A stretch of 64,000 nt of DNA from Eledone cirrhosa. Lineage: Eukaryota. The stretch is from contig OZ024741.1 in NCBI GenBank assembly GCA_964016885.1, positions 41,106,001-41,170,000 on the forward strand, written 5' to 3'. How positions within the stretch are numbered: the stretch's first letter is position 1; each line of letters begins with the position of its first letter. Shown here piece after piece: positions 9,037 to 60,517 of the stretch. The notes under the pieces were generated by a model. It did no database searches. It saw nothing but the letters and a program-made list of their open reading frames with translations, and had not been told where the DNA came from. Made by a program: the position numbers and the translations under genes.

Positions 9037-9227
9037 GAAGTGACATAGTCACTACTCTAATACTGATAGCATATGGTCTTTTAAATGTTTTTAAACATTA
9101 AACATACGGTATATTGCCAAATACACTATACATACATTTATATATATATAGTAGAATAATCGAGAATCGGAAAAACAGCTCGCGAATCAACGATAAACAA
9201 TATCCGATATGTGTGGCAGAGGGCTCA

Positions 9228-11828
9228 GACCCCACAGCCAGAAATAAATTTCAAAGCATATTACTTGATGCTTTCGACAGTAAGGAAGAGCATCTAGAAT
9301 CGGACAATATAGAGGGACAGTGGGAATTTCTGAAAGCAAACCTGCTGTTGGCGACAGACGAAGTCTGTGGCTGGAGCAGGCCTGTAGGCAGGAGGAGAGT
9401 AACATGGTGGTGGAACAGTAGGGTGGAGGGGTCAATTAAGGCCAAAAAGCAGGCTTGGAAAGTATGGCGGGATGGGGGGAGTAGAGTGGACTATCAAGTG
9501 GCCAGGAGGGAAGCTAGGAGAGAAGTGTACTTAGCAAGAAGGGAAGCTGAGGAAAGAAAGTTCAAGCATGTTCTACAACGCGATGACCAAAAACGTGAGG
9601 TGTTCAGGATTGCTAGGCAATGCGTCAAGGAAAACCGTGATATTGTCGGGGAGAAGTGTGTACTTAACGATGATGGCATACTTGCCATCACCGACACTGA
9701 TAAGAAGGTAGCTTGGAAGTGTCACTATGAAAGGCTACTAAATGAGGAGAATAAATGGGAGAAAGACAGTCTCCCCCATATCGACCCAATAGAGGGACCA
9801 GCAGTGTTAGTCGAGGGGAGTATAATAAGTAAGGCAATCAAGGATATGAAGACGGGTAAGGCGGCTGGGCCTTCGGAAATAGTTGCTGAGATGCTGAAGG
9901 CATCTGGCACGGTGGGACACACCATGGTCACCCGCATAGTTAACCAAGTCGTACAGAATGGGGTTGTTCCGAAGGACTGGCATAGCAGCATCATCGTTAA
10001 CTGTTATAAGGGTAAAGGAGCCGCCCTAGATAGGAGTAACTATAGAGGCATTAAATTAATCGACCAGGTCATGAAGGTCACGGAAAAAGTAATAGCGCAA
10101 CTAATCAGAGAGAGAATTGACCTAGATGAAATGCAGTTCGGGTTTGTGTCAGGCAAAAGCACCACAGACGCTCTTTTCATAGTACGACAACTACAGGAGA
10201 AGTACCTAGCTAAAGGTAAACCCCTCTACTTAGCTTTTGTCGACCTGGAGAAAGCCTTCGACAGAGTCCCCCGCTCCATTATCTGGTGGGCTCTTAGAAA
10301 ACTAGGCGTTGACGAATGGCTTGTGAGGGCTATACAAGCCATGTATAAAGAAACAGTCAGCAAGGTTAGAATTAACAACGAATATAGTGAAGAGTTTAGC
10401 GTAAAAGTTGGCGTCCACAGGGCTCTGTTCCCAGCCCCCTACTATTTATTATTGCTCTTCAGGCTATAACAGAGGAGTTCAAGACAGGCTGCCCATGGGA
10501 ACTCCTATACGCAGACGACCTGACACTCATAGCGGAATCAATGGCCGAGCTAGAGAAGAAATTCCAAACATGGAAGCACGGCCTAGAGTCAAAAGGACTT
10601 AAAATTAACCTGGCTAAGACCAAAGTTCTAGTTTGTAGGAAAGAAAACAAGGCGGCGGTCCCTTCTGGGAAATGGTCGTGCTCGGTGTGTAGGAAAGGCG
10701 TAGGTAGAAACTCCATTTTATGTCCTAAATGCAAAGTATGGGTGCATAAAAGATGTAGTGGGATCACAGGTAAGCTAACTAAGAACATAGATTTTACATG
10801 TGGCCGGTGTTCTGGTGCAATAACTAGCAGCAAGTGCCCACAAAATACTAGTTCTTTCAATTGCGCAGAGGGTTCTATAGAAATAGTGGACAGCTTCCGT
10901 TACCTGGGCGATAAAATCAGCAGTGGGGGAGGGTGCTCTGAAAGTACTGTAGCTAGAGTCAGAACTGGTTGGAAAAAGTTCAGAGAGCTTATACCACTAT
11001 TAGCTGCTAAAGGGTTCTCCCTAAAAATGAAAGGCAGGTTGTACGATGCCTGCATACGAACAGCAATGTTGCATGGTAGTGAGACCTGGGCATTGTGTGC
11101 AGAGGATATACGCAGACTAGAGAGGAACGAAGCTTGCATGCTCCGCTGGATGTGTAACAGTAATATACGTGAACGGCAAAGCATAAACGAACTAAGGAAA
11201 AAATTAGAGATAAGAGGGATCAGATGTTGTTTACTCGAGAGAAGGCTGCGTTGGTATGGACACGTGATGCGCATGAAAGTCGATAGCTGTATAACAAAGT
11301 GCAGGGCAATAAAGATAGACGGTAGCCACGGAATAGGCAGACCTAGAAAAACCTGGGATGAGCTGATAAACTCCGACCTCACACACTTACACCTCTCCAA
11401 GACAATGTCACTGGACCGAGACCTTTGGCGGTACTCAGTAACAGAGAAGACCCGCCTTGCCAGTAGGCATCTCTAACAAAATACACCCCGTCCCGCCACC
11501 ACCCCCACCCCATCCACACCACCCCGTTCTATGTAAAGTTATGTTGGTGCCGCGCCATCCAGGCCGAAACAAATGAGATCGTGTAGGTGTCACGACAAAA
11601 AAACACACAGTCCACGCTGTAATGTGGCCGTGTAGGCAACACCGTAAAAACCTCCCAGACCCACACTGTAAATGTGGTTGGTGTTAGGAAGGGCATCCAA
11701 CTGTAGAAAACCTGCCAGACAGTCCTATGCGAGCAAGACAATCACTCTTGCCTCAAGTGGGACTACCCCCGTCCAAACCCATGCAAGCATGGAACACGGA
11801 CGTTAAACGTTGATGATGATGATGATGA
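9228..11828 (+). mobile_element. 5'-truncated RTE LINE of the same family as 55763-59658, with one frameshift near 10418
   Basis: Near-identical to the long copy from GACCCCACAGCCAGAAAT onward. RT is split over ORFs 9114-10469 and 10541-11476. (GAT)n tail present. Confidence 0.93.
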
Positions 11829-42890: not shown

Positions 42891-43222
42891 ATATAAATGC
42901 AGGCTTAGATGTGTGCTTAAGGAGTTTACTTTGTAACCATGTGGTGTGGTTTGGAGTTTATTCCTTGTCAAGGGAATTTGGTAGAAGGAACCTGCAGAAG
43001 TCAGTCACACACACACATATCAGTCGATCGACAAGATCCCAGACCTCATTCGCTTAACAAGCGGGATCTACCAGTCGCAAATCCAGACAGATCAAGAAAT
43101 GTGGAATAAAGTGTGTTGCTCAAGGACATACAAATTGCCTGGTCTGGGAATCGAATTCACAACCTCACGATTGCAAATCCATTTCTCTAACCACGCAGCC
43201 ATCTTCACAATATACATATATT

Positions 43223-43344
43223 TAATATAGAAATGGCTTCTACAGGACTAGAACTATTTCATTTGAGAGAAATTATCAGGAAGCCGCCTGATGATTTCTC
43301 CCGAATGAAACAGTTCTAGTCCTGTAGAAGCCATTTCTATATTA
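43223..43344. repeat. ~120-bp palindrome (family shared with 55102-55220)
   Basis: TAATATAGAAATGGCTTCTACAGGACTAGAAC...GTTCTAGTCCTGTAGAAGCCATTTCTATATTA, with loop AAGCCG. Confidence 0.92.
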
Positions 43345-43694
43345 GATATTTAGTATTTAGACTCTGCTATGTATTGAGTACCTTACTGTGGCTACCCCTG
43401 ATTGAAACCGTCATAAACATATATATATATATATATAGTAATAATAATAAATGTGAAGACTAAAATCCAAAGAGGGTTTGATAAAGATAAATATAAGGGG
43501 GAAAGCAGCAATTCTTTGCTTAAACTTTAATCTGTTATTTTAATAAATATATATATATATGCAGAGGTTGTATTTAATTTGTTGGGATTCAACAAGCTTA
43601 AACATTTTTATAACTGATATAAAGCACTCAACAATTTAGTGGAGTAAATATTCAATATATTAATAAATGGAAACTATATTTATAAAACCATAAT

Positions 43695-43760
43695 TATTTT
43701 ATTATATATATTTCAAGGGCAACCAAAGCAAATTCGGGTGCGCTTTCATCAGATAAAATA
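43695..43760 (-). ncRNA. Type I hammerhead ribozyme fold (inverted partner of 44201-44266)
   Basis: Reverse complement is TATTTTAT-CTGATGA-AAGCGCACCC...TGGTTGCCCTT-GAAA-TATATA-TA-ATAAAATA. Confidence 0.78.
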
Positions 43761-43848
43761 CAAATTTGTTTTATAAAAAAATATTGACATACCCGCATAA
43801 AGACAACCTTAACGGTTGAGGTTCGCAGATAAAATACAAATTTGTTTT

Positions 43849-44110
43849 CATCATCATCATCATCGTTTAACGTCCATCTTCCATGCTTGCATGGGTTTGG
43901 ACGGGAATTTTCCCACTTGAGGCAAGATTGGTTGTCTTGTTCGTATAGGACTGTCTGGCGGGTTTTCTACGGCTGGATGCCCTTCCTAACACCAACCACG
44001 TTTACAGAGTGGACTGGGAGGTTTTTACCGTGTTACCTACACGGCCATATTACAGTGTGGACTGTGTGTTTTTTTGTCGTGACACCTACACGACCTCATT
44101 TGTTTTGGAA
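43849..44110 (-). mobile_element. RTE 3'UTR/tail fragment inserted at the centre of a hammerhead-bearing palindrome
   Basis: Reverse complement of the RTE 3'UTR, with a (CAT)n tail at about 43849-43864. Confidence 0.88.
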
Positions 44111-44200
44111 TGGATAAATAACGGTTGAGGTGCAGTGAACCTCAACCGTTAAGGTTGTCTTTATGCGGGTATGTCAATATTTATTTATAAAACAAATTTG

Positions 44201-44266
44201 TATTTTATCTGATGAAAGAGCACCAGAATTTGCCTTGGTTGCACTTGAAATATATATAATAAAATA
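44201..44266 (+). ncRNA. Type I hammerhead ribozyme fold
   Basis: TATTTTAT-CTGATGA-AAGAGCACCA...TGGTTGCACTT-GAAA-TATATA-TA-ATAAAATA. Perfect 8-bp stem I and palindromic (AT)4 stem III. Confidence 0.8.
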
Positions 44267-45180
44267 ATTATGGTTTTATAAATATAGTTTCCATTTATTA
44301 ATATATTGTATATATATATTTATATATATATAGCAAAATTGAATATAGGATATAGACATTTTGTTGCTTTCACTCTACTAATGTATTGAGTACCTTATTT
44401 ACTGTGGTTACCCCCGATATCACTCAAGATCTACATATATATATATGAGTGAATCTTTGACTGTGCATGTTTGTATGTATGTGTGTATGTATATATGTGT
44501 GGTTATGTGTGTGTTTGTGTGTGTATGCAAGCATGTATGTGTGCCCGTGAGTGAGTGGATGTGTGTGGATTTGTGCCTGTATTTATTTTCCATATCTTAG
44601 TCATTTGTCAAAGAAGTTTTCACAAAAATGAGTACCAGATTTAAAAAAAAAATATTGGGGTTGATATTATTTACATTTAAGATGGTGCTCCAACATGGCC
44701 ACATTCTAATAAGTGCAACCAATAAAAGAAAAGTAAATATAAATATCTTTACAGTAATGGATTATTTCCTATTTCTTGCCTACCTCAATTTAAGGAGTAA
44801 TATTATTTACATTAGAAGTAACATCATTTTCAAAACAACAGTAACAATAAATGAGATTTCTCCTCTCGTAGTCCAACCATAATAAATACCTTTCCTGCCT
44901 TTTGATTGATAGTTATTTAATCGATATATTTAAATGTCACACTAATTACCTGTCATTACCCATCATTCTATGATTCCTATACCTTTACATTCAGAATCAG
45001 TTGTACAAAGTAACAGTAAGTGTGAGTGTGTGTGTGTATATATATATATTTTGTTTCTGAATTTGTTTAGCAAGATTCTTTATCTGAAAACGTGTGTTGA
45101 AACCGATATTGTTATACTTTGGGAGGGTCATGTTGCCAATAAGAAACACACGCACCAGTTGCTTTCACTCCAATTTATAT

Positions 45181-53799: not shown

Positions 53800-55101
53800 A
53801 TCCTTCCATCATAATTTTATTTTATGTTATAAATATTAACTTATTAATGAAAACCCTAGTTATTTTATTAAATTCCTCCAAAAGTTTGGTTATTTTCAGA
53901 ATTAATTGGAACACAAAGGCAGTGTATTTCACTAGAAATATGGTAATGCAATGTTTAATGCTGAATAAAGTATATGTTAAGCTTCCCTCAAAGAAGTAGT
54001 GTTTCACTATATTAACCCTTTTAATACCAAACCACCCAACCCTGGCTTGGGTTTATGACACAAAACTGTTTGTTTTGAAGTATTTATATTTATCTCAAGA
54101 ACTTCCATCATAATTCTATGTAAGAACCTTTGGTAAGTTGTTTCAAACATGATCTTGATAATGAGAAAGGCAGTGTCTTGAGGTGTATGGCAATAAAAAG
54201 TAAGGCTTAATGCAGTTAAAGACCAGCAAGAAGAACATAATGCAGTCACAGTAGCAAGTGTTTTAAGGCCATTTTCCTCAGTCTTATGGGATGGGACCCA
54301 TGCTAAACTCCATACTTATCATGGTAACCTTTATGAGGTATGGTTTTATGACTGGATATGCTTCTAGCTGCCAGACCTAGTAGTTGTTTCTTTCTGAGTT
54401 GTAATTCATTTACGCTGTTCAACACTGACACAACAACAAGCATTTTAAGGCCATTTACCATACCAAAGTAGGAGTTAGCCTTGTAGATGGCTCCATGACA
54501 GGGTTTCATACACATCATAATGACCTTTTTGAGGCAATATTTTATAGCTGCATGCTCTTCTTGGCACCAACAATTTTAGTCAACTCATATATGCAGGGAT
54601 ATATTGTGCTAATTCTGAACTGGATACATGCATCAAGAATAAAATGCAGCCACAATAATATATAAAGCATACAGTCACACATATATATATACATATATAT
54701 ATCATTATCATCATCATCATCATTATCATTGTCATTTTAATATCCACTTTCCCTGCTAGAAAGGGTTGGACAGGTCTATATAGACCAAGTCAATACTGAA
54801 GCGGAGCCACTGATCTCCCAGGCAGGCCAGGAGCCTGTGTGCTCAGGTGAGGTTGTCATGGCCTTGACATATCTGAGGCTCCTCCCAAACCTTTGTTTTG
54901 GTAAGATTTCTATGGCTGGATACCCTTCCTATCACAAACACTAGGCAAGTTGTCATGTCAAGGGCATGACTGGTGGGTTCTCTCGACCATTTACACACAC
55001 ACACACACACGTACATATATATATATATATATATGGGCATCCTAGGTTCAAATGAGGCTAACCACAGTAAGTAAGGTATTCAATATATAGCAGAATATAC
55101 A

Positions 55102-55220
55102 TTTTTAATACAGAAATGGCTCCTACAGGACTAGAACTGTTTCATTTGAAGGAAATCATCACATGATTTCCTTTGAATGAAACAGTTCTAGTCCTGTAGA
55201 GGCCATTTCTATATTAAAAA
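55102..55220. repeat. ~120-bp palindrome (family shared with 43223-43344)
   Basis: Arms of ~58 bp around loop CAC at 55160-55162. Confidence 0.92.
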
Positions 55221-55225
55221 AAGAG

Positions 55226-55260
<35 letters not shown>

Positions 55261-55261
55261 G

Positions 55262-55350
<89 letters not shown>

Positions 55351-55422
55351 ACAAAAAGATGAAATCGAAAATGCAACTGGAGTCTTATTTTTTTTTTTTA
55401 AATATATATATTTATTTGGTTC

Positions 55423-55458
55423 CTTTACCGGTTTCGCAGTTCTTCTGCTTTTCAAAAG
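55423..55458 (-). ncRNA. Minimal hammerhead, U3/A8 variant (inverted partner)
   Basis: Exact reverse complement of 55530-55565. Confidence 0.72.
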
Positions 55459-55529
55459 TAGAGTTGAGATGGAGGGTCTGTGGTTTTTCTCACTGTGAGA
55501 AAAACCACAGACCCTCCATCTCAACTCTA

Positions 55530-55565
55530 CTTTTGAAAAGCAGAAGAACTGCGAAACCGGTAAAG
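55530..55565 (+). ncRNA. Minimal hammerhead, U3/A8 core variant
   Basis: CTT-TTGAAAA-(GCAG aagaa CTGC)-GAAA-CCGG-TA-AAG, with palindromic stem III ACCGGT. Confidence 0.72.
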
Positions 55566-55696
55566 GAACCAAATGAATAAATATATTTTTAAAAAAATAA
55601 GACTCCAGTTGCATTTTCGATATTTCATCTTTTTTCTTTATACTTTCACTCGTGTAGGACACCTCGGTTATTTTTCATTTTGTAAAAAAACCTCAC

Positions 55697-55743
<47 letters not shown>

Positions 55744-55762
55744 TATGTATATATATATATTT

Positions 55763-58700
55763 AAATCATTAGTTCATCCATTGGCCATTCTCTATCGTTT
55801 TTTCCCCGAATCCAATCTTTGTCTTTCTACTCGATACACTGTCGTATTTTCCAAAACAAATCTTGTATTTTTGTTTATGCTTGTTAAATTAAGCCCAAAA
55901 TACGGGGATCTTATTTATAACCTTACCTTCTCGCTAACTACCCACCATCCCTCCCTCCCGCCCCCACACACCACCATTATTACGTGGACCAATCATAAGT
56001 CAGAAGCCTATACTATCGCTTCCCTGGTTGCCTTTCGATATGATGGATGGACTACGGAATTCTGGAGAGTTGAAGAGAGAAAAATCTGGACGCTCAGCGA
56101 CAATGCCAAAGATAAAGACAAATTCACCTCGTGGACGAGAATGCAAGCACTCCTCCTCCTTGTTTCGGCCGCGGATGGTTAACATAACCCCACGCCCCAC
56201 CGTTCCCACCCTCCAAACGCAATCCAAAACTTCAGAGTTGGTACCATGAATGTAGGAACCTTAAAGGGTCGCTCTAACGAGGTTGTAGAAATGCTTGAAC
56301 GTAAGGAGGTCGATGTTTGTTGTATTCAAGAGACCAGGTGGAGGGGTGGGTCTGCTAGATTCATCGTGGGTAAAGAACGATGCTATAAGCTTCTCTGGGT
56401 GGGAAATGACAATGGGCTGGGTGGAGTAGGAATCATGGTAGCAGCAAAGTGGGCAGATAAGATAATAGACGTAAATAGAGTGAACGACAGAATAATTAAA
56501 GTAAGACTTGTCCTCAATAGAACTACGGTGACAGTAATATCTGCGTACGCACCCCAATCCGGACTGCCTGGCACTATAAAAGACAGATTCTATGAGACAC
56601 TGATGCTCACTACCTCCCAAATAACCGAAAGTGACTATATAATTATTGCAGGTAACCTAAATGGTCACGTTGGACCACATTGTGACGGCTATGACGGAAT
56701 CCATGGAGGCTATGGGTTCGGTACTAGAAATGAGGAAGGCTCCAGAATCCAGGAATTCTGTGAACCAAATAACCTAACTATCTGTAACACTAACTTCAAA
56801 AAATGAGACAATCACTTGATCACCTATAGATCGGGGGAACACACAAGCCAGGTAGATTATATCCTTACCAGAAGACGTGACAGAGTGTCTGTTGTAAACA
56901 CTAAATCCCTCCCCCATGAAGAATGCACCTCCCAACATAGACTCATAATTAGCGACCTCATAGTCAGGACGAGACGTACCAGACAGCAGAAGAGGACTAT
57001 CCTCAGGAGAAAAATATGGAAGCTAAACGACCCCACAGCCAGAAATAAATTTCAAAGCATATTACTTGATGCTTTCGACAGTAAGGAAGAGCAGTTAGAG
57101 TCGTACAATATAGAGGAACAGTGGGAATTCCTGAAAGCAAACCTGCTGACGGCGGCAGACGAAGTCTGTGGGTGGAGCAGGCCTGTAGGCAGGAGGAGAG
57201 TAACATGGTGGTGGAACAGTAAGGTGGAGGAATCAATTAAGGCCAAAAAGCAGGCTTGGAAAGTATGGCTGGATGAGGGAAGTAGAGAAGACTATCAAGT
57301 GGCCAGGAGGGAAGCTAGGAGACAAGTGTACTTCGCAAGAAGGGAAGCAGAGGAAAGAAAGTTCAAGCATGTTCTACAACGTGAGGACCAAAAACGTGAG
57401 GTGTTCAGGATTGCTAGGCAATGTGTCAAGGAAAACCGTGATATTGTCGGGGAGAAGTGTGTACTTAATGATGATGGCGTACTTGCCATCACTGACACTG
57501 ATAAGAGGGTAGCTTGGAAGTGTCACTACAAAAGGCTTCTAAATGAGGAGAATAAATGGGAGAAAGACAGTCTCCCCCACATTGACCCAATAGAGGGACC
57601 AGCAGTGTTAGTCGAAGGTAGTATAATAAGTAAGGCAATCAAAGATATGAAGACAGGTAAGGCGGCTGGGCCTTCGGAAATAGTTGCTGAGATGTTGAAA
57701 GCCTCTGGAACGGTGGGACACACCATGGTCACCCGGATAGTAAACCAAGTCATACAGAATGGGGTTGTTCTGAAGGACTGGCGTAGCAGCATCATCATTA
57801 ACTGTTACAAGCGTAAAGGAGATGCCCTAGATAAGAGTAACTATAGAGGCATTAAATTAATCGACCAGGTCATGAAGGTCACGGAAAAAGTAATAGCGCA
57901 ACTAATCAGAGAGAGAATTGATCTAGATGAAATGCAGTTCGGGTTTGTGTCAGGCAAAAGTACCACAGACGCTCTTTTCATTGTACGACAACTACAAGAG
58001 AAGTACCTAGCTAAAAGTAAACCCCTATACTTAGCTTTTGTTGACTTGGAGAAAGCCTTCGACAGAGTCCTCTGTTCCATTATCTGGTGGGCTCTTAGAA
58101 AACTAGGTGTTGACGAATGGCTTGTGAGAGCTATACAAGCCATGTATAAAGAAACAGTCAGCAAGGTTAGAATTAACAACGAATATAGTGAAGAGTTTAG
58201 CGTAAAAGTTGGTGTTCATCAGGGCTCTGTTCTTAGCCCCCTACTATTTATTATTGACCTTCAGGCTATAACAGTGGAGTTCAAGACCGGCTGCCCATGG
58301 GAACTCCTATACGCAGATGATCTAACGCTCATAGCTGAATCAATGGCCGAGCTAGAGAAGAAATTCCAAACATGGAAGCATGGCCTAGAATCAAAAGGCC
58401 TTAAAATTAACCTGGCTAAGACTAAAGTTCTAGTTTGTAGGAAAGAAAATAAGGCGCCGGTCCCTTCCGGGAAATGGCCATGCTCAGTGTGTAGGAAAGG
58501 CGTAGGTAGAAACTCCATTTTATGTCCCAAATGCAAAGTATGGGTGCATAAAAGATGTAGTGGGATCACAGGTAAGCTAACTAAGAACATAGATTTTACA
58601 TGTGTCCGGTGCTCTGGTGCAATAAGTAGCAGTAAGTGCACACAAAATACTAGCTCTTTCAATTGCGCAGAGGGTTCTATAGAAATAGTGGACAGCTTCC

Positions 58701-59658
58701 GTTACCTGGGTGACAAAATCAGCAGTGGGGGAGGGTGCTCTGAAAGTACAGTAGCTAGAGTCAGAACTGGATGGAAAAAGTTCAGAGAGCTTATACCACT
58801 ATTAGCCGCTAAAGGTTTCTCCCTAAAAATGAAAGGCAGGTTGTATGATGCCTGCTTACGAACAGCAATGTTGCATGGCAGTGAGACCTGGGCATTGTGT
58901 GCAGAGGATATACGCAGACTAGAGAGGAACGAAGCTTGCATGCTCCGCTGGATGTGTAATAGTAATATACGTGAACGGCAAAGCATAAACGAACTAAGGG
59001 AAAAATTAGAAATAAGAGGGATCAGATGTTGTTTACTCGAGAGAAGGCAAAGTTGGTATGGTCACGTGATGCGCAAGAAAGACGACAGCTGTATAAAAAA
59101 GTGCAGGGCAATAAAGATAGACGGTAGCCACGGAGTAGGCAGACCCAGAAAAACCTGGGACAACCTGATAAATTCCGACCTCACACCTCTTACACCTCTC
59201 CAAGACAATGTCACTGGACCGAGATCTTTGGCGGTACTAAGTAATAGAGAAGACCCGCCTTGCCTAAATACAAAGTAAACCTACTACAGTCAGTAGGCAT
59301 CTCTAACAAAATACGCTCCCCGTCACACCACCCCATCCACACCACCCCTTTCAATGTAAAGTTACGTTGGTGCCACAACATCCAGGCCGAAACAAATGAG
59401 ATCGTGTAGGTGTCACGACAAAAAAACACACAGTCCACGCTGTAATGTGGCCATGTAGGCAACACGGTAAAAACCTCCCAGTCCCACACTGTAAATGTGG
59501 TTGGTGTTAGGAAGGGCATCCAGCTGTAGAAAACCCGCCAGACAGTACTATGCGAGCAAGACAACCACTCTTGCCTCAAGTGGGAAAACTCCCGACCAAA
59601 CCCATGCAAGCGTGAAACATGGACGTTAAACGATGATGATGATGATGATGATGATGAT
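55763..59658 (+). mobile_element. Near full-length RTE-clade LINE (5'UTR, APE endonuclease, RT with internal PHD-type finger, 3'UTR, (GAT)n tail)
   Basis: APE motifs (RVGTMNVGTL, CCIQETRW, ISAYAPQ, SQVDYIL) and RT motifs (NYRGIKL, QFGF, AFVDLEKAFDRV, GVHQGSVLSPLLF, LLYADDL, FRYLG). Ends in GRPRKTW and a (GAT)n tail. The 5' boundary next to (TA)n is approximate. Confidence 0.93.
56231..59278 (+). pseudogene. RTE APE-RT ORF, disrupted by one in-frame TGA (56804-56806) and a late frameshift near 59185
   Basis: ORFs 56246-56806 and 56816-59278 are in the same frame (NFKK*DNHLITY). The C-terminus departs from the frame of the 10541-11476 copy after LINSDLT. Confidence 0.9.
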
Positions 59659-59858
59659 ATATATAATTGTTTATTATATATTCTCATATTATTTTTACCA
59701 TATCTCTCTTTATTTCCTTCAAAGATAAATTGCAAAGTCTACTTTAAATTATTTTCTAATAAGCTATATTTTCTACTTAGAAAATGATTATTCCAAGAAT
59801 ATGTGGCAAGGCACATCTATTTAGCAAAAGATAATAAATTAATATTATGTTTGTATAT

Positions 59859-60517
59859 ATATAGACGGTAGCCACGGAGTAGGCAGACCCAGAAAAACAT
59901 GGGACGAGCTGATAAATTCCGACCTCACACGCTTACACCTCTCCAAGACAATGTCACTGGACTGACACCTTTGGCGGTACTCAGTAATAGAGAAGACCCG
60001 CCTTACCTAAATACAAAGTAAAAACCTACTACAGTCAGTAGGCATCTCTATCAAAACACACCCCCGTCCCACCACCTCCACCCCATCCACACCGCCCCTT
60101 TCAATGTAAAGTTATGTTGGTCCCACAACATCCAAGCCGAAACAAATGAGATCGTGTAGGTGTCACGACAAAAAAACACACAGTCCACGCTGTAAATGTG
60201 GCCGTGTAGGCAACACGGTAAAAACCTCCCAGCCCCACACTGTAAATGTGGTTGGTGTTAGGAAGGGCATCCAGCTGTAGAAAACCCGCTAGACAGTCCA
60301 CGCTGTAATGTGGCCGTGTAGGCAACACGGTAAAAACCTCCCAGCCCCACACTGTAAATGTGGTTGGTGTTAGGAAGGGCATCCAACTGTAGAAAACCCG
60401 CCAGACAGTCCTATGCGAGCAAGACAACCACTCTTGCCTCAAGTGGGAAAACCCCCGTCCAAACCCATCCAAGCGTGGAACACGGACGCTAAACCTGATG
60501 ATGATGATGATGATGAT
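59859..60517 (+). mobile_element. RTE 3' fragment with an internal ~113-bp tandem duplication in the 3'UTR
   Basis: Matches 59117-59658. The unit beginning CAGTCCACGCTGTAA occurs at 60181 and 60294. (GAT)n tail present. Confidence 0.9.

What the first reader, a model, noticed from the sequence alone, without database searches (positions are those of the whole stretch)
55344..55701. Young ~300-bp palindrome with twin U3-A8 variant hammerheads
Seen: 1-nt loop at 55494, with the inner arms perfectly complementary. Each arm has UUGAAAA-GCAG/CUGC-GAAA-CCGG-UA, where the C3-G8 pair is replaced by the compensatory U3-A8. The right arm continues ~60 bp further to (TA)n. Established: the 3-8 pair is Watson-Crick in the active hammerhead, and U3-A8 variants occur in PLE minimal hammerheads. 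Inference: transcription from either side gives essentially the same long dsRNA hairpin, which would sequester its own ribozyme and be a potential ADAR/Dicer substrate. It sits just upstream of the full-length RTE 5' end.
Basis: partly seen in the sequence, partly recalled or inferred. Interest (0 to 1): 0.72.

Follow-up and report, generated by a model that had tools for sequence, protein, structure and literature searches.

The report
Back-to-back Penelope retrotransposon stub
This mirror-image stretch is one of thousands of back-to-back stubs left by a Penelope-type jumping gene, likely made when both ends of a cut in a TA repeat each copied the front of the element's RNA; its hammerhead-like motif is the family's standard version and is predicted to be masked, so the site itself is ordinary.

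Summary
The palindrome is real: arms 55345-55493 and 55495-55642, inner 80 bp perfect, a U3-A8 minimal hammerhead motif in each arm, and a 59-bp one-sided extension. It is not unique. It is the pseudo-LTR (5' leader) of a Neptune/Nematis-type Penelope-like retrotransposon (parent with RT and C-terminal GIY-YIG found at L033), inserted head-to-head into (TA)n with the known one-sided 'tail'. The short-arm end occurs 2,838 times exactly; 57 of 90 consecutive cases have a head-to-head partner. U3-A8 is family-wide (219 of 221 copies) and already described in Penelope elements. The neighbouring LINE is 5'-truncated and unlinked. Copy ends pile up about 30 nt below a TATA box, both outer ends sit on TATA overlaps, and in 9 of 47 pairs neither arm can be a copy of the other, which favours twin priming on sense, uncleaved RNA over fold-back. 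I found no footprint of ribozyme cleavage or A-to-I editing. A predicted intron spanning the ribozyme has one spliced-looking copy (weak). The scan has noted the same architecture and twin-priming reading before, for other families in this genome.

The parts
55345..55493 (-). Short (tail-less) arm: inverted copy of pseudo-LTR positions 1-148; outer end on a TATA overlap with (TA)n
   Evidence: same end at 2,838 exact sites
55494..55494 (.). 1-nt centre, at the family's 5'-end hot spot (inferred transcription start, positions -4 to +2)
55495..55701 (+). Long arm: pseudo-LTR positions 1-207, the 5' leader that precedes the ORF in the parent element
55643..55701 (+). 59-bp one-sided tail between the two inferred priming sites; ends on a TATA overlap with (TA)n
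   Evidence: (47 of 51 close partners end here)
55530..55565 (+). Minimal type I hammerhead motif, U3-A8 core at 55533-55539, stem II 55540-55552, palindromic helix III, predicted cut 55562|55563, 3-bp stem I
   Evidence: activity untested
55423..55458 (-). Mirror copy of the hammerhead motif in the short arm
55495..55657 (+). Predicted GT-AG intron (donor GTGAG, pyrimidine tract and TAG acceptor) that holds the hammerhead and the short-arm priming site
   Evidence: sequence; one exactly spliced-looking genomic arm, 1 of 5 comparable junctions: weak
55226..55347 (.). (TA)n target array, left flank
55703..55760 (.). (TA)n target array, right flank
55760..59278 (+).

Best explanation
The palindrome is a stub insertion of an abundant Penelope-like retrotransposon, two truncated copies of its 5' leader joined head to head inside a (TA)n array, likely made by twin priming. 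Shown: identity with the parent's leader, fixed outer ends on TATA overlaps, inner ends clustered 29-30 nt below a TATA box, variable centres. Inferred: the GIY-YIG endonuclease cuts both strands of (TA)n; each 3' end anneals to one of two TATA words in the sense RNA (positions about 146 and about 210) and primes its own cDNA; both cDNAs run to the RNA's capped start and are joined by end-joining, giving a palindrome with a one-sided tail. The template would be unspliced and not cleaved by the hammerhead. The twin ribozymes and their masking in a hairpin are by-products; the stub has no upstream promoter and is likely inert.
For: Parent: L033 has inverted arm + 3' UTR + this leader + ORF with RT, C-x4-C-x2-C linker and GIY-YIG; a second promoter copy lies 4.7 kb downstream on the same strand. 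Abundance: 2,838 exact short-arm junctions, control 0. Of the first 90 such sites, 57 have a head-to-head partner, 51 within 40 nt, and 47 of the 51 end at the tail end. 55 of 117 inner ends lying in -40..+120 fall in -5..+2 and only 2 in -40..-6 (p 9e-40 against uniform); TATAAAA starts at -33. In 9 of 47 pairs the tail-less arm reaches 8 or more nt further 5' than the tailed arm, so neither is a sub-copy of the other; in 15 the reverse holds. 2 of 19 informative pairs differ at a two-letter subfamily marker. L207 has an unspliced short arm and a long arm joined exactly at the predicted splice sites. No drop in ends at the ribozyme cut: of 100 listed junctions (136 in all) 32 end at 69-75, 32 at 62-68, 4 exactly at 69 (hand count). 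Literature: inverted truncated copy, tail and (TA)n bias are standard (PMC8557442, PMC3846280); a purified PLE protein cuts and extends both strands, starts at two sites that define the tail, and uses uncleaved RNA (PMC11167929).
Against: Asymmetric centres could come from later deletions at an unstable palindrome; marker discordance from gene conversion (both discordant short arms are chimeric for a second marker). Several pairs share rare variants in both arms (for example L111, L124, L184; L011), as fold-back or conversion would also give. Alignment ends at palindrome centres are uncertain by a few letters. The start site and the intron are inferred from DNA only; L207 is 1 of 5 leader-to-tail junctions and has a 1-letter overlap, so chance is not excluded. 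PMC11167929 reports priming at sites not homologous to the target, unlike the TATA overlaps here, and PMC3846280 reads head-to-head junctions as self-priming on an antisense template. The tail (59 bp) is longer than the 30-40 bp in print.
Confidence: 0.75

Rival explanations
1. Same element, but the second arm is a fold-back: one cDNA primed at the tail end runs to the RNA's 5' end, snaps back and copies itself, and the endonuclease resolves it short of the tail.
For: Most pairs agree in subfamily (17 of 19) and some share rare variants; centres with symmetric hairpin tips are common; 'tail' as a product of endonuclease resolution and self-priming are proposed in PMC8557442 and PMC3846280.
Against: 9 of 47 short arms reach further 5' than the tailed arm; short arms also occur alone and 9 of 15 such solo arms end at -4..0; 2 discordant pairs; L207.
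Confidence: 0.2
2. One reading: a functional hairpin RNA that sequesters its ribozyme and feeds ADAR or Dicer, tied to the adjacent RTE.
For: Predicted hairpin of -228 kcal/mol abolishes stem II; any read-through transcript would be long dsRNA.
Against: Thousands of equivalent stubs with variable centres; no promoter in the stub; A>G 7 of 4,367 A against T>C 22 of 3,956 T, at most 2 A>G in any of 147 arms; stem I is predicted not to form even in a single arm of this subfamily (0.00); 0 of 19 other LINE loci carry it.
Confidence: 0.04
3. Read fold-back or assembly artefact.
For: Perfect inner 80 bp with a 1-nt loop; no read or contig spans the locus.
Against: Arms differ at 7 places; ends match family boundaries; an opposite-strand joint of this family is seen in raw reads of three other runs (table 5; 2-3 start places each); exact centre and rare letters in contigs.
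Confidence: 0.01

Closest known systems
Insertion units of endonuclease-bearing Penelope-like elements (Craig et al. 2021, PMC8557442; Pen2a_Av, PMC3846280)
   Same: 5'-truncated copy with an adjacent inverted copy, one-sided tail, (TA)n bias, hammerhead in the pseudo-LTR, C-terminal GIY-YIG.
   Different: Here only the leader is copied (no ORF), the tail is 59 bp rather than 30-40 bp, and both ends show TATA overlap with the target.
Neptune / Nematis clades of PLEs
   Same: CX2-5CxxC linker before GIY-YIG, two cysteines inside GIY-YIG and two histidines, (TA)n targeting.
   Different: No tree was built, so Neptune against Nematis is not settled; family name not established.
U3-A8 minimal hammerheads of Schistosoma Cercyon PLEs (Cervera and de la Pena 2014, PMC4209133)
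   Same: U3-A8 core, G10.1-C11.1 pair, short palindromic helix III suited to dimers; that paper also notes motif pairs on opposite strands 100-700 bp apart.
   Different: Stem II is 4 bp, there is no extra base after A9, stem I is 3 bp here (4 bp in the youngest subfamily).
PAc Poseidon element of Anolis in vitro (Frangieh et al. 2024, PMC11167929)
   Same: Two internal RT start sites bracket the tail; both target strands are cut and extended; uncleaved RNA is the template.
   Different: PAc primes without homology to the target and its tail lies in the ORF; here both sites carry TATA and lie before the ORF.
Metazoan non-LTR retrozymes (bioRxiv 10.64898/2026.07.22.740005)
   Same: Non-coding, hammerhead-bearing derivative of a PLE pseudo-LTR.
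   Different: No tandem array of units; two arms only, in opposite orientation.

Membership tests
EN+ Penelope-like element | RT followed by C-terminal GIY-YIG endonuclease | tested here: met
   Parent L033: RVT_1 E 1.3e-6 and GIY-YIG E 2e-4, both just under Pfam's curated cut-offs; Atlas hits 0.97-0.98 with GIY-YIG; the ORF of this copy is split over three frames
EN+ Penelope-like element | Pseudo-LTR leader upstream of the ORF, partial tandem | tested here: met
   Leader contiguous with the ORF start in L033 and in most of 30 ORF-start loci; second promoter copy 4.7 kb downstream
EN+ Penelope-like element | Adjacent inverted 5'-truncated copy with one-sided tail | tested here: met
   57 of 90 loci with partner; 47 of 51 close partners carry the tail; tail 59 bp, longer than described
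EN+ Penelope-like element | Hammerhead motif in the pseudo-LTR | tested here: met
   Motif in both arms and in 20 of 30 ORF-start loci, the rest truncated or not matched
EN+ Penelope-like element | Retained spliceosomal intron | tested here: inconclusive
   GT-AG motifs; 1 exactly spliced-looking arm among 5 comparable junctions; second hit was a chance match
EN+ Penelope-like element | Target-site duplication | tested here: inconclusive
   Both flanks are (TA)n, so none can be read
Neptune/Nematis clades | CX2-5CxxC linker and CCHH motif | tested here: met
   Read by eye in the L033 translation against the definitions in PMC8557442
Neptune/Nematis clades | RT phylogeny | not tested
   No reference set was fetched
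Hydra clade | CxCX5C linker and no CCHH motif | tested here: not met
Type I minimal hammerhead | Core with Watson-Crick 3-8 pair, stem II closed by G10.1-C11.1, UH site, palindromic helix III | tested here: met
Type I minimal hammerhead | Stem I | tested here: inconclusive
   3 bp in this copy, predicted probability 0.00; 4 bp and 0.52-0.55 in the parent subfamily, which also forms the dimer duplex in cofolding
Type I minimal hammerhead | Covariation of positions 3 and 8 | tested here: inconclusive
   Two older-subfamily copies (L221, L223) read C3-G8 at the homologous place, found by a pattern that demands that core, so near chance; 0 hits with the present stem II
Type I minimal hammerhead | Self-cleavage | not testable with these tools
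   No cleavage footprint in copy ends
Non-LTR retrozyme | Tandem units each with a hammerhead | tested here: not met
   One unit per arm, opposite strands
MITE / fold-back DNA transposon | Fixed internal sequence between matched terminal inverted repeats | tested here: not met
   Centres vary from locus to locus, ends are asymmetric, parent encodes RT

The most novel reading that the evidence does not exclude
These stubs are a genomic record of the Penelope replication cycle: a capped sense RNA starting about 4 nt before an intron that contains the hammerhead is copied twice, once from each cut end of (TA)n. One priming site lies inside the intron, which would explain why these elements keep their intron, and the ribozyme would act on intron-containing RNA after or apart from copying. 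Stepwise gains of pairs in stems I and II from the oldest to the youngest subfamily would show selection on a U3-A8 ribozyme.
Probability: 0.35. Interest if true: 0.55.

Novelty: new member of a known kind. Interest (0 to 1): 0.28.

Why it matters
The locus itself is ordinary. The family is useful as a test bed: it is young (ORF starts 99% identical), has thousands of dated junctions, and speaks to an open point in print, namely whether Penelope elements copy an antisense RNA by self-priming or an unspliced sense RNA (PMC3846280, Discussion), and what their hammerheads and introns are for.

Tried and rejected
Arm-specific A/G difference at position 81 (seen, noted as a possible editing, poly(A)-signal or two-template mark): rejected as a sampling effect of the word-indexed search; A in 121 of 122 arms of the pattern-chosen sample and in nearly all reads. 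Ribozyme cut as a template end: an apparent cluster at 69-77 was not borne out. A-to-I footprint in copies: none. C3-G8 sister family with the same stem II: 0 matches; looser pattern 14 matches against 8 in the control. Second spliced copy: L209 is unrelated DNA. Link to the neighbouring LINE: none; its missing 5' part was not found elsewhere in the window. Rfam: miRNA-hairpin matches below gathering score only. Expression: no RNA holder listed; not evidence either way. Locus-level presence/absence could not be read because both flanks are repeats. Paper searches: 'hammerhead, C3U, G8A' found 0; 'hammerhead, U3-A8, C3-G8' found 2; 'Neptune, Penelope, octopus' listed 1; so I have no paper on the cleavage rate of U3-A8 cores and cannot say whether this family is in Repbase or Dfam, which were not searchable. 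Host-gene context of the window was not examined.

Full report
Observation. The arms are 55345-55493 and 55495-55642 around one base at 55494; the inner 80 bp are perfect, the outer part differs by 4 substitutions and 3 gaps, and the right arm continues 59 bp to (TA)n. A scan of the whole window on both strands for minimal hammerheads with a palindromic helix III gave 4 hits: the two U3-A8 motifs at 55533 (+) and 55455 (-) and two canonical ones at 44209 (+) and 43752 (-). Positions below count from 55495 = +1 (parent numbering differs by 1-2 near the ends).

Identity. The 207-bp right arm matches many places in the genome over its full length (40 of 217 candidates scored). Some copies continue upstream into a 3' UTR and the end of a GIY-YIG frame; L033 holds an inverted short arm, a truncated 3' UTR, the leader and then an ORF with RT, a C-x4-C-x2-C linker and GIY-YIG, split over three frames. 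This is an endonuclease-bearing Penelope-like element with the linker of the Neptune and Nematis clades (PMC8557442, passages read). The best 40 of 287 candidates for the ORF start are 99% identical, so the family was recently active.

The palindrome is the family's normal product. The junction of the short arm with (TA)n occurs 2,838 times exactly, control 0. I examined the first 90 of the 100 listed sites: 57 have a head-to-head partner in the stretch fetched, 51 within 40 nt, and 47 of those 51 end at the tail end; 14 short arms ran beyond the reference, so their partners may lie outside. Inverted truncated copy, one-sided tail and (TA)n bias are described in PMC8557442 and PMC3846280 (passages; Discussion). 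U3-A8 cores and motif pairs on opposite strands are described in PMC4209133 (parts 1-2 of 4 read).

Mechanism, shown parts. Both outer ends fall on TATA words of the element that overlap the target. Inner ends cluster: 55 of the 117 that lie in -40..+120 (147 ends in all) fall in -5..+2, only 2 in -40..-6, and a TATAAAA box starts at -33 in the parent. In 9 of 47 pairs the tail-less arm reaches at least 8 nt further 5' than the tailed arm, in 15 the reverse. 2 of 19 informative pairs differ at a two-letter subfamily marker, 17 agree. Mechanism, inferred parts: a sense RNA starts at about -4/-3; both cut ends of (TA)n prime a cDNA, one at each TATA word; both run to the RNA's 5' end and are joined. 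This fits the in vitro behaviour of PAc (both strands cut and extended, two start sites that define the tail, uncleaved RNA used; PMC11167929, parts 1-2 of 4 read), except that PAc primes without homology. Against it: later deletions and gene conversion could give the same asymmetries, some pairs share rare variants, and PMC3846280 prefers self-priming on antisense RNA. I wrote the two-template idea in my notes before looking up earlier scan notes, which give the same reading for other families; they are unchecked and not independent support.

Ribozyme. U3-A8 stands in 219 of 221 copies held, so it is the family's core and not a feature of this site. Two older copies read C3-G8 at the same place, near what chance allows. 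Three subfamilies differ in age (mean divergence 0.7% in 131 copies, 2.2% in 67, 7.6% in 3; the sample is skewed to the youngest by my searches); from oldest to youngest, stem II and then stem I gain pairs, a hint of selection resting on very few old copies. The window's copy is of the middle subfamily, whose stem I is predicted not to form; the whole hairpin removes stem II as well. Copy ends show no step at the cut site (hand count of 100 of 136 junctions), so the copied RNA was mostly uncleaved.

Intron. The leader begins with a donor-like GTGAG and has a pyrimidine tract and TAG at +161 (window 55495-55657), enclosing the hammerhead and the short-arm priming site. A search for the predicted spliced junction found one site, L207, a palindrome with an unspliced short arm and an exactly joined long arm. 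It is 1 of 5 leader-to-tail junctions within 28 nt, so this is weak. Penelope of Drosophila virilis has a spliced 5' intron near its start (PMC2377424, passages).

No A-to-G excess in 147 arms. The stub lacks the upstream promoter. The LINE next door is 5'-truncated by up to about 120 nt, has a stop between EN and RT, and none of 19 other copies has this element beside it. An artefact is unlikely, though no read spans the locus.

Verdict. A new member of a known kind: an ordinary stub of a Neptune/Nematis-type Penelope-like element. Interest 0.28, carried by the family-level evidence on template and priming, not by the site. The retrozyme preprint was read in part 1 of 5 only; no supplements were read, and those of PMC4209133 and PMC8557442 may list related motifs or families. 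The 'E2F-like' and 'branch/acceptor' labels are recalled, not from a call.

Noticed in passing
window 55016-55221: A second palindromic stub of another Penelope-type family, tail on the left, centre cut inside a canonical CUGAUGA core seen in other copies; the same family occurs at 43221-43344.
   Followed up: partly
window 43470-44310: A third inverted pair with canonical C3-G8 hammerheads at 44209 (+) and 43752 (-), its centre interrupted by what looks like a LINE 3'-end piece.
   Followed up: no
L033:5221-5620: The parent's 3' UTR carries a compact promoter-like set above the leader: TATAAAA -33, CCAAT -82, GCGCGAAA -111 (E2F-like, recalled), TCACGTGA -274; these words are kept in the oldest subfamily in part.
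   Followed up: partly
L207:1380-1690: Palindrome with an unspliced short arm and a long arm joined exactly at the predicted splice sites.
   Followed up: yes
L221:1470-1540, L223:1470-1540: Older-subfamily copies with a canonical C3-G8 core; copies of that subfamily read GCGAG at the predicted splice donor.
   Followed up: partly
window 56183-59278 and 9102-11476: LINE copies with a PHD finger directly after the RT; a 3' piece of the first is repeated at 59855-60000.
   Followed up: no
L004:161-565: A 405-bp, 98.8% perfect palindrome of yet another family next to a copy of this element.
   Followed up: no
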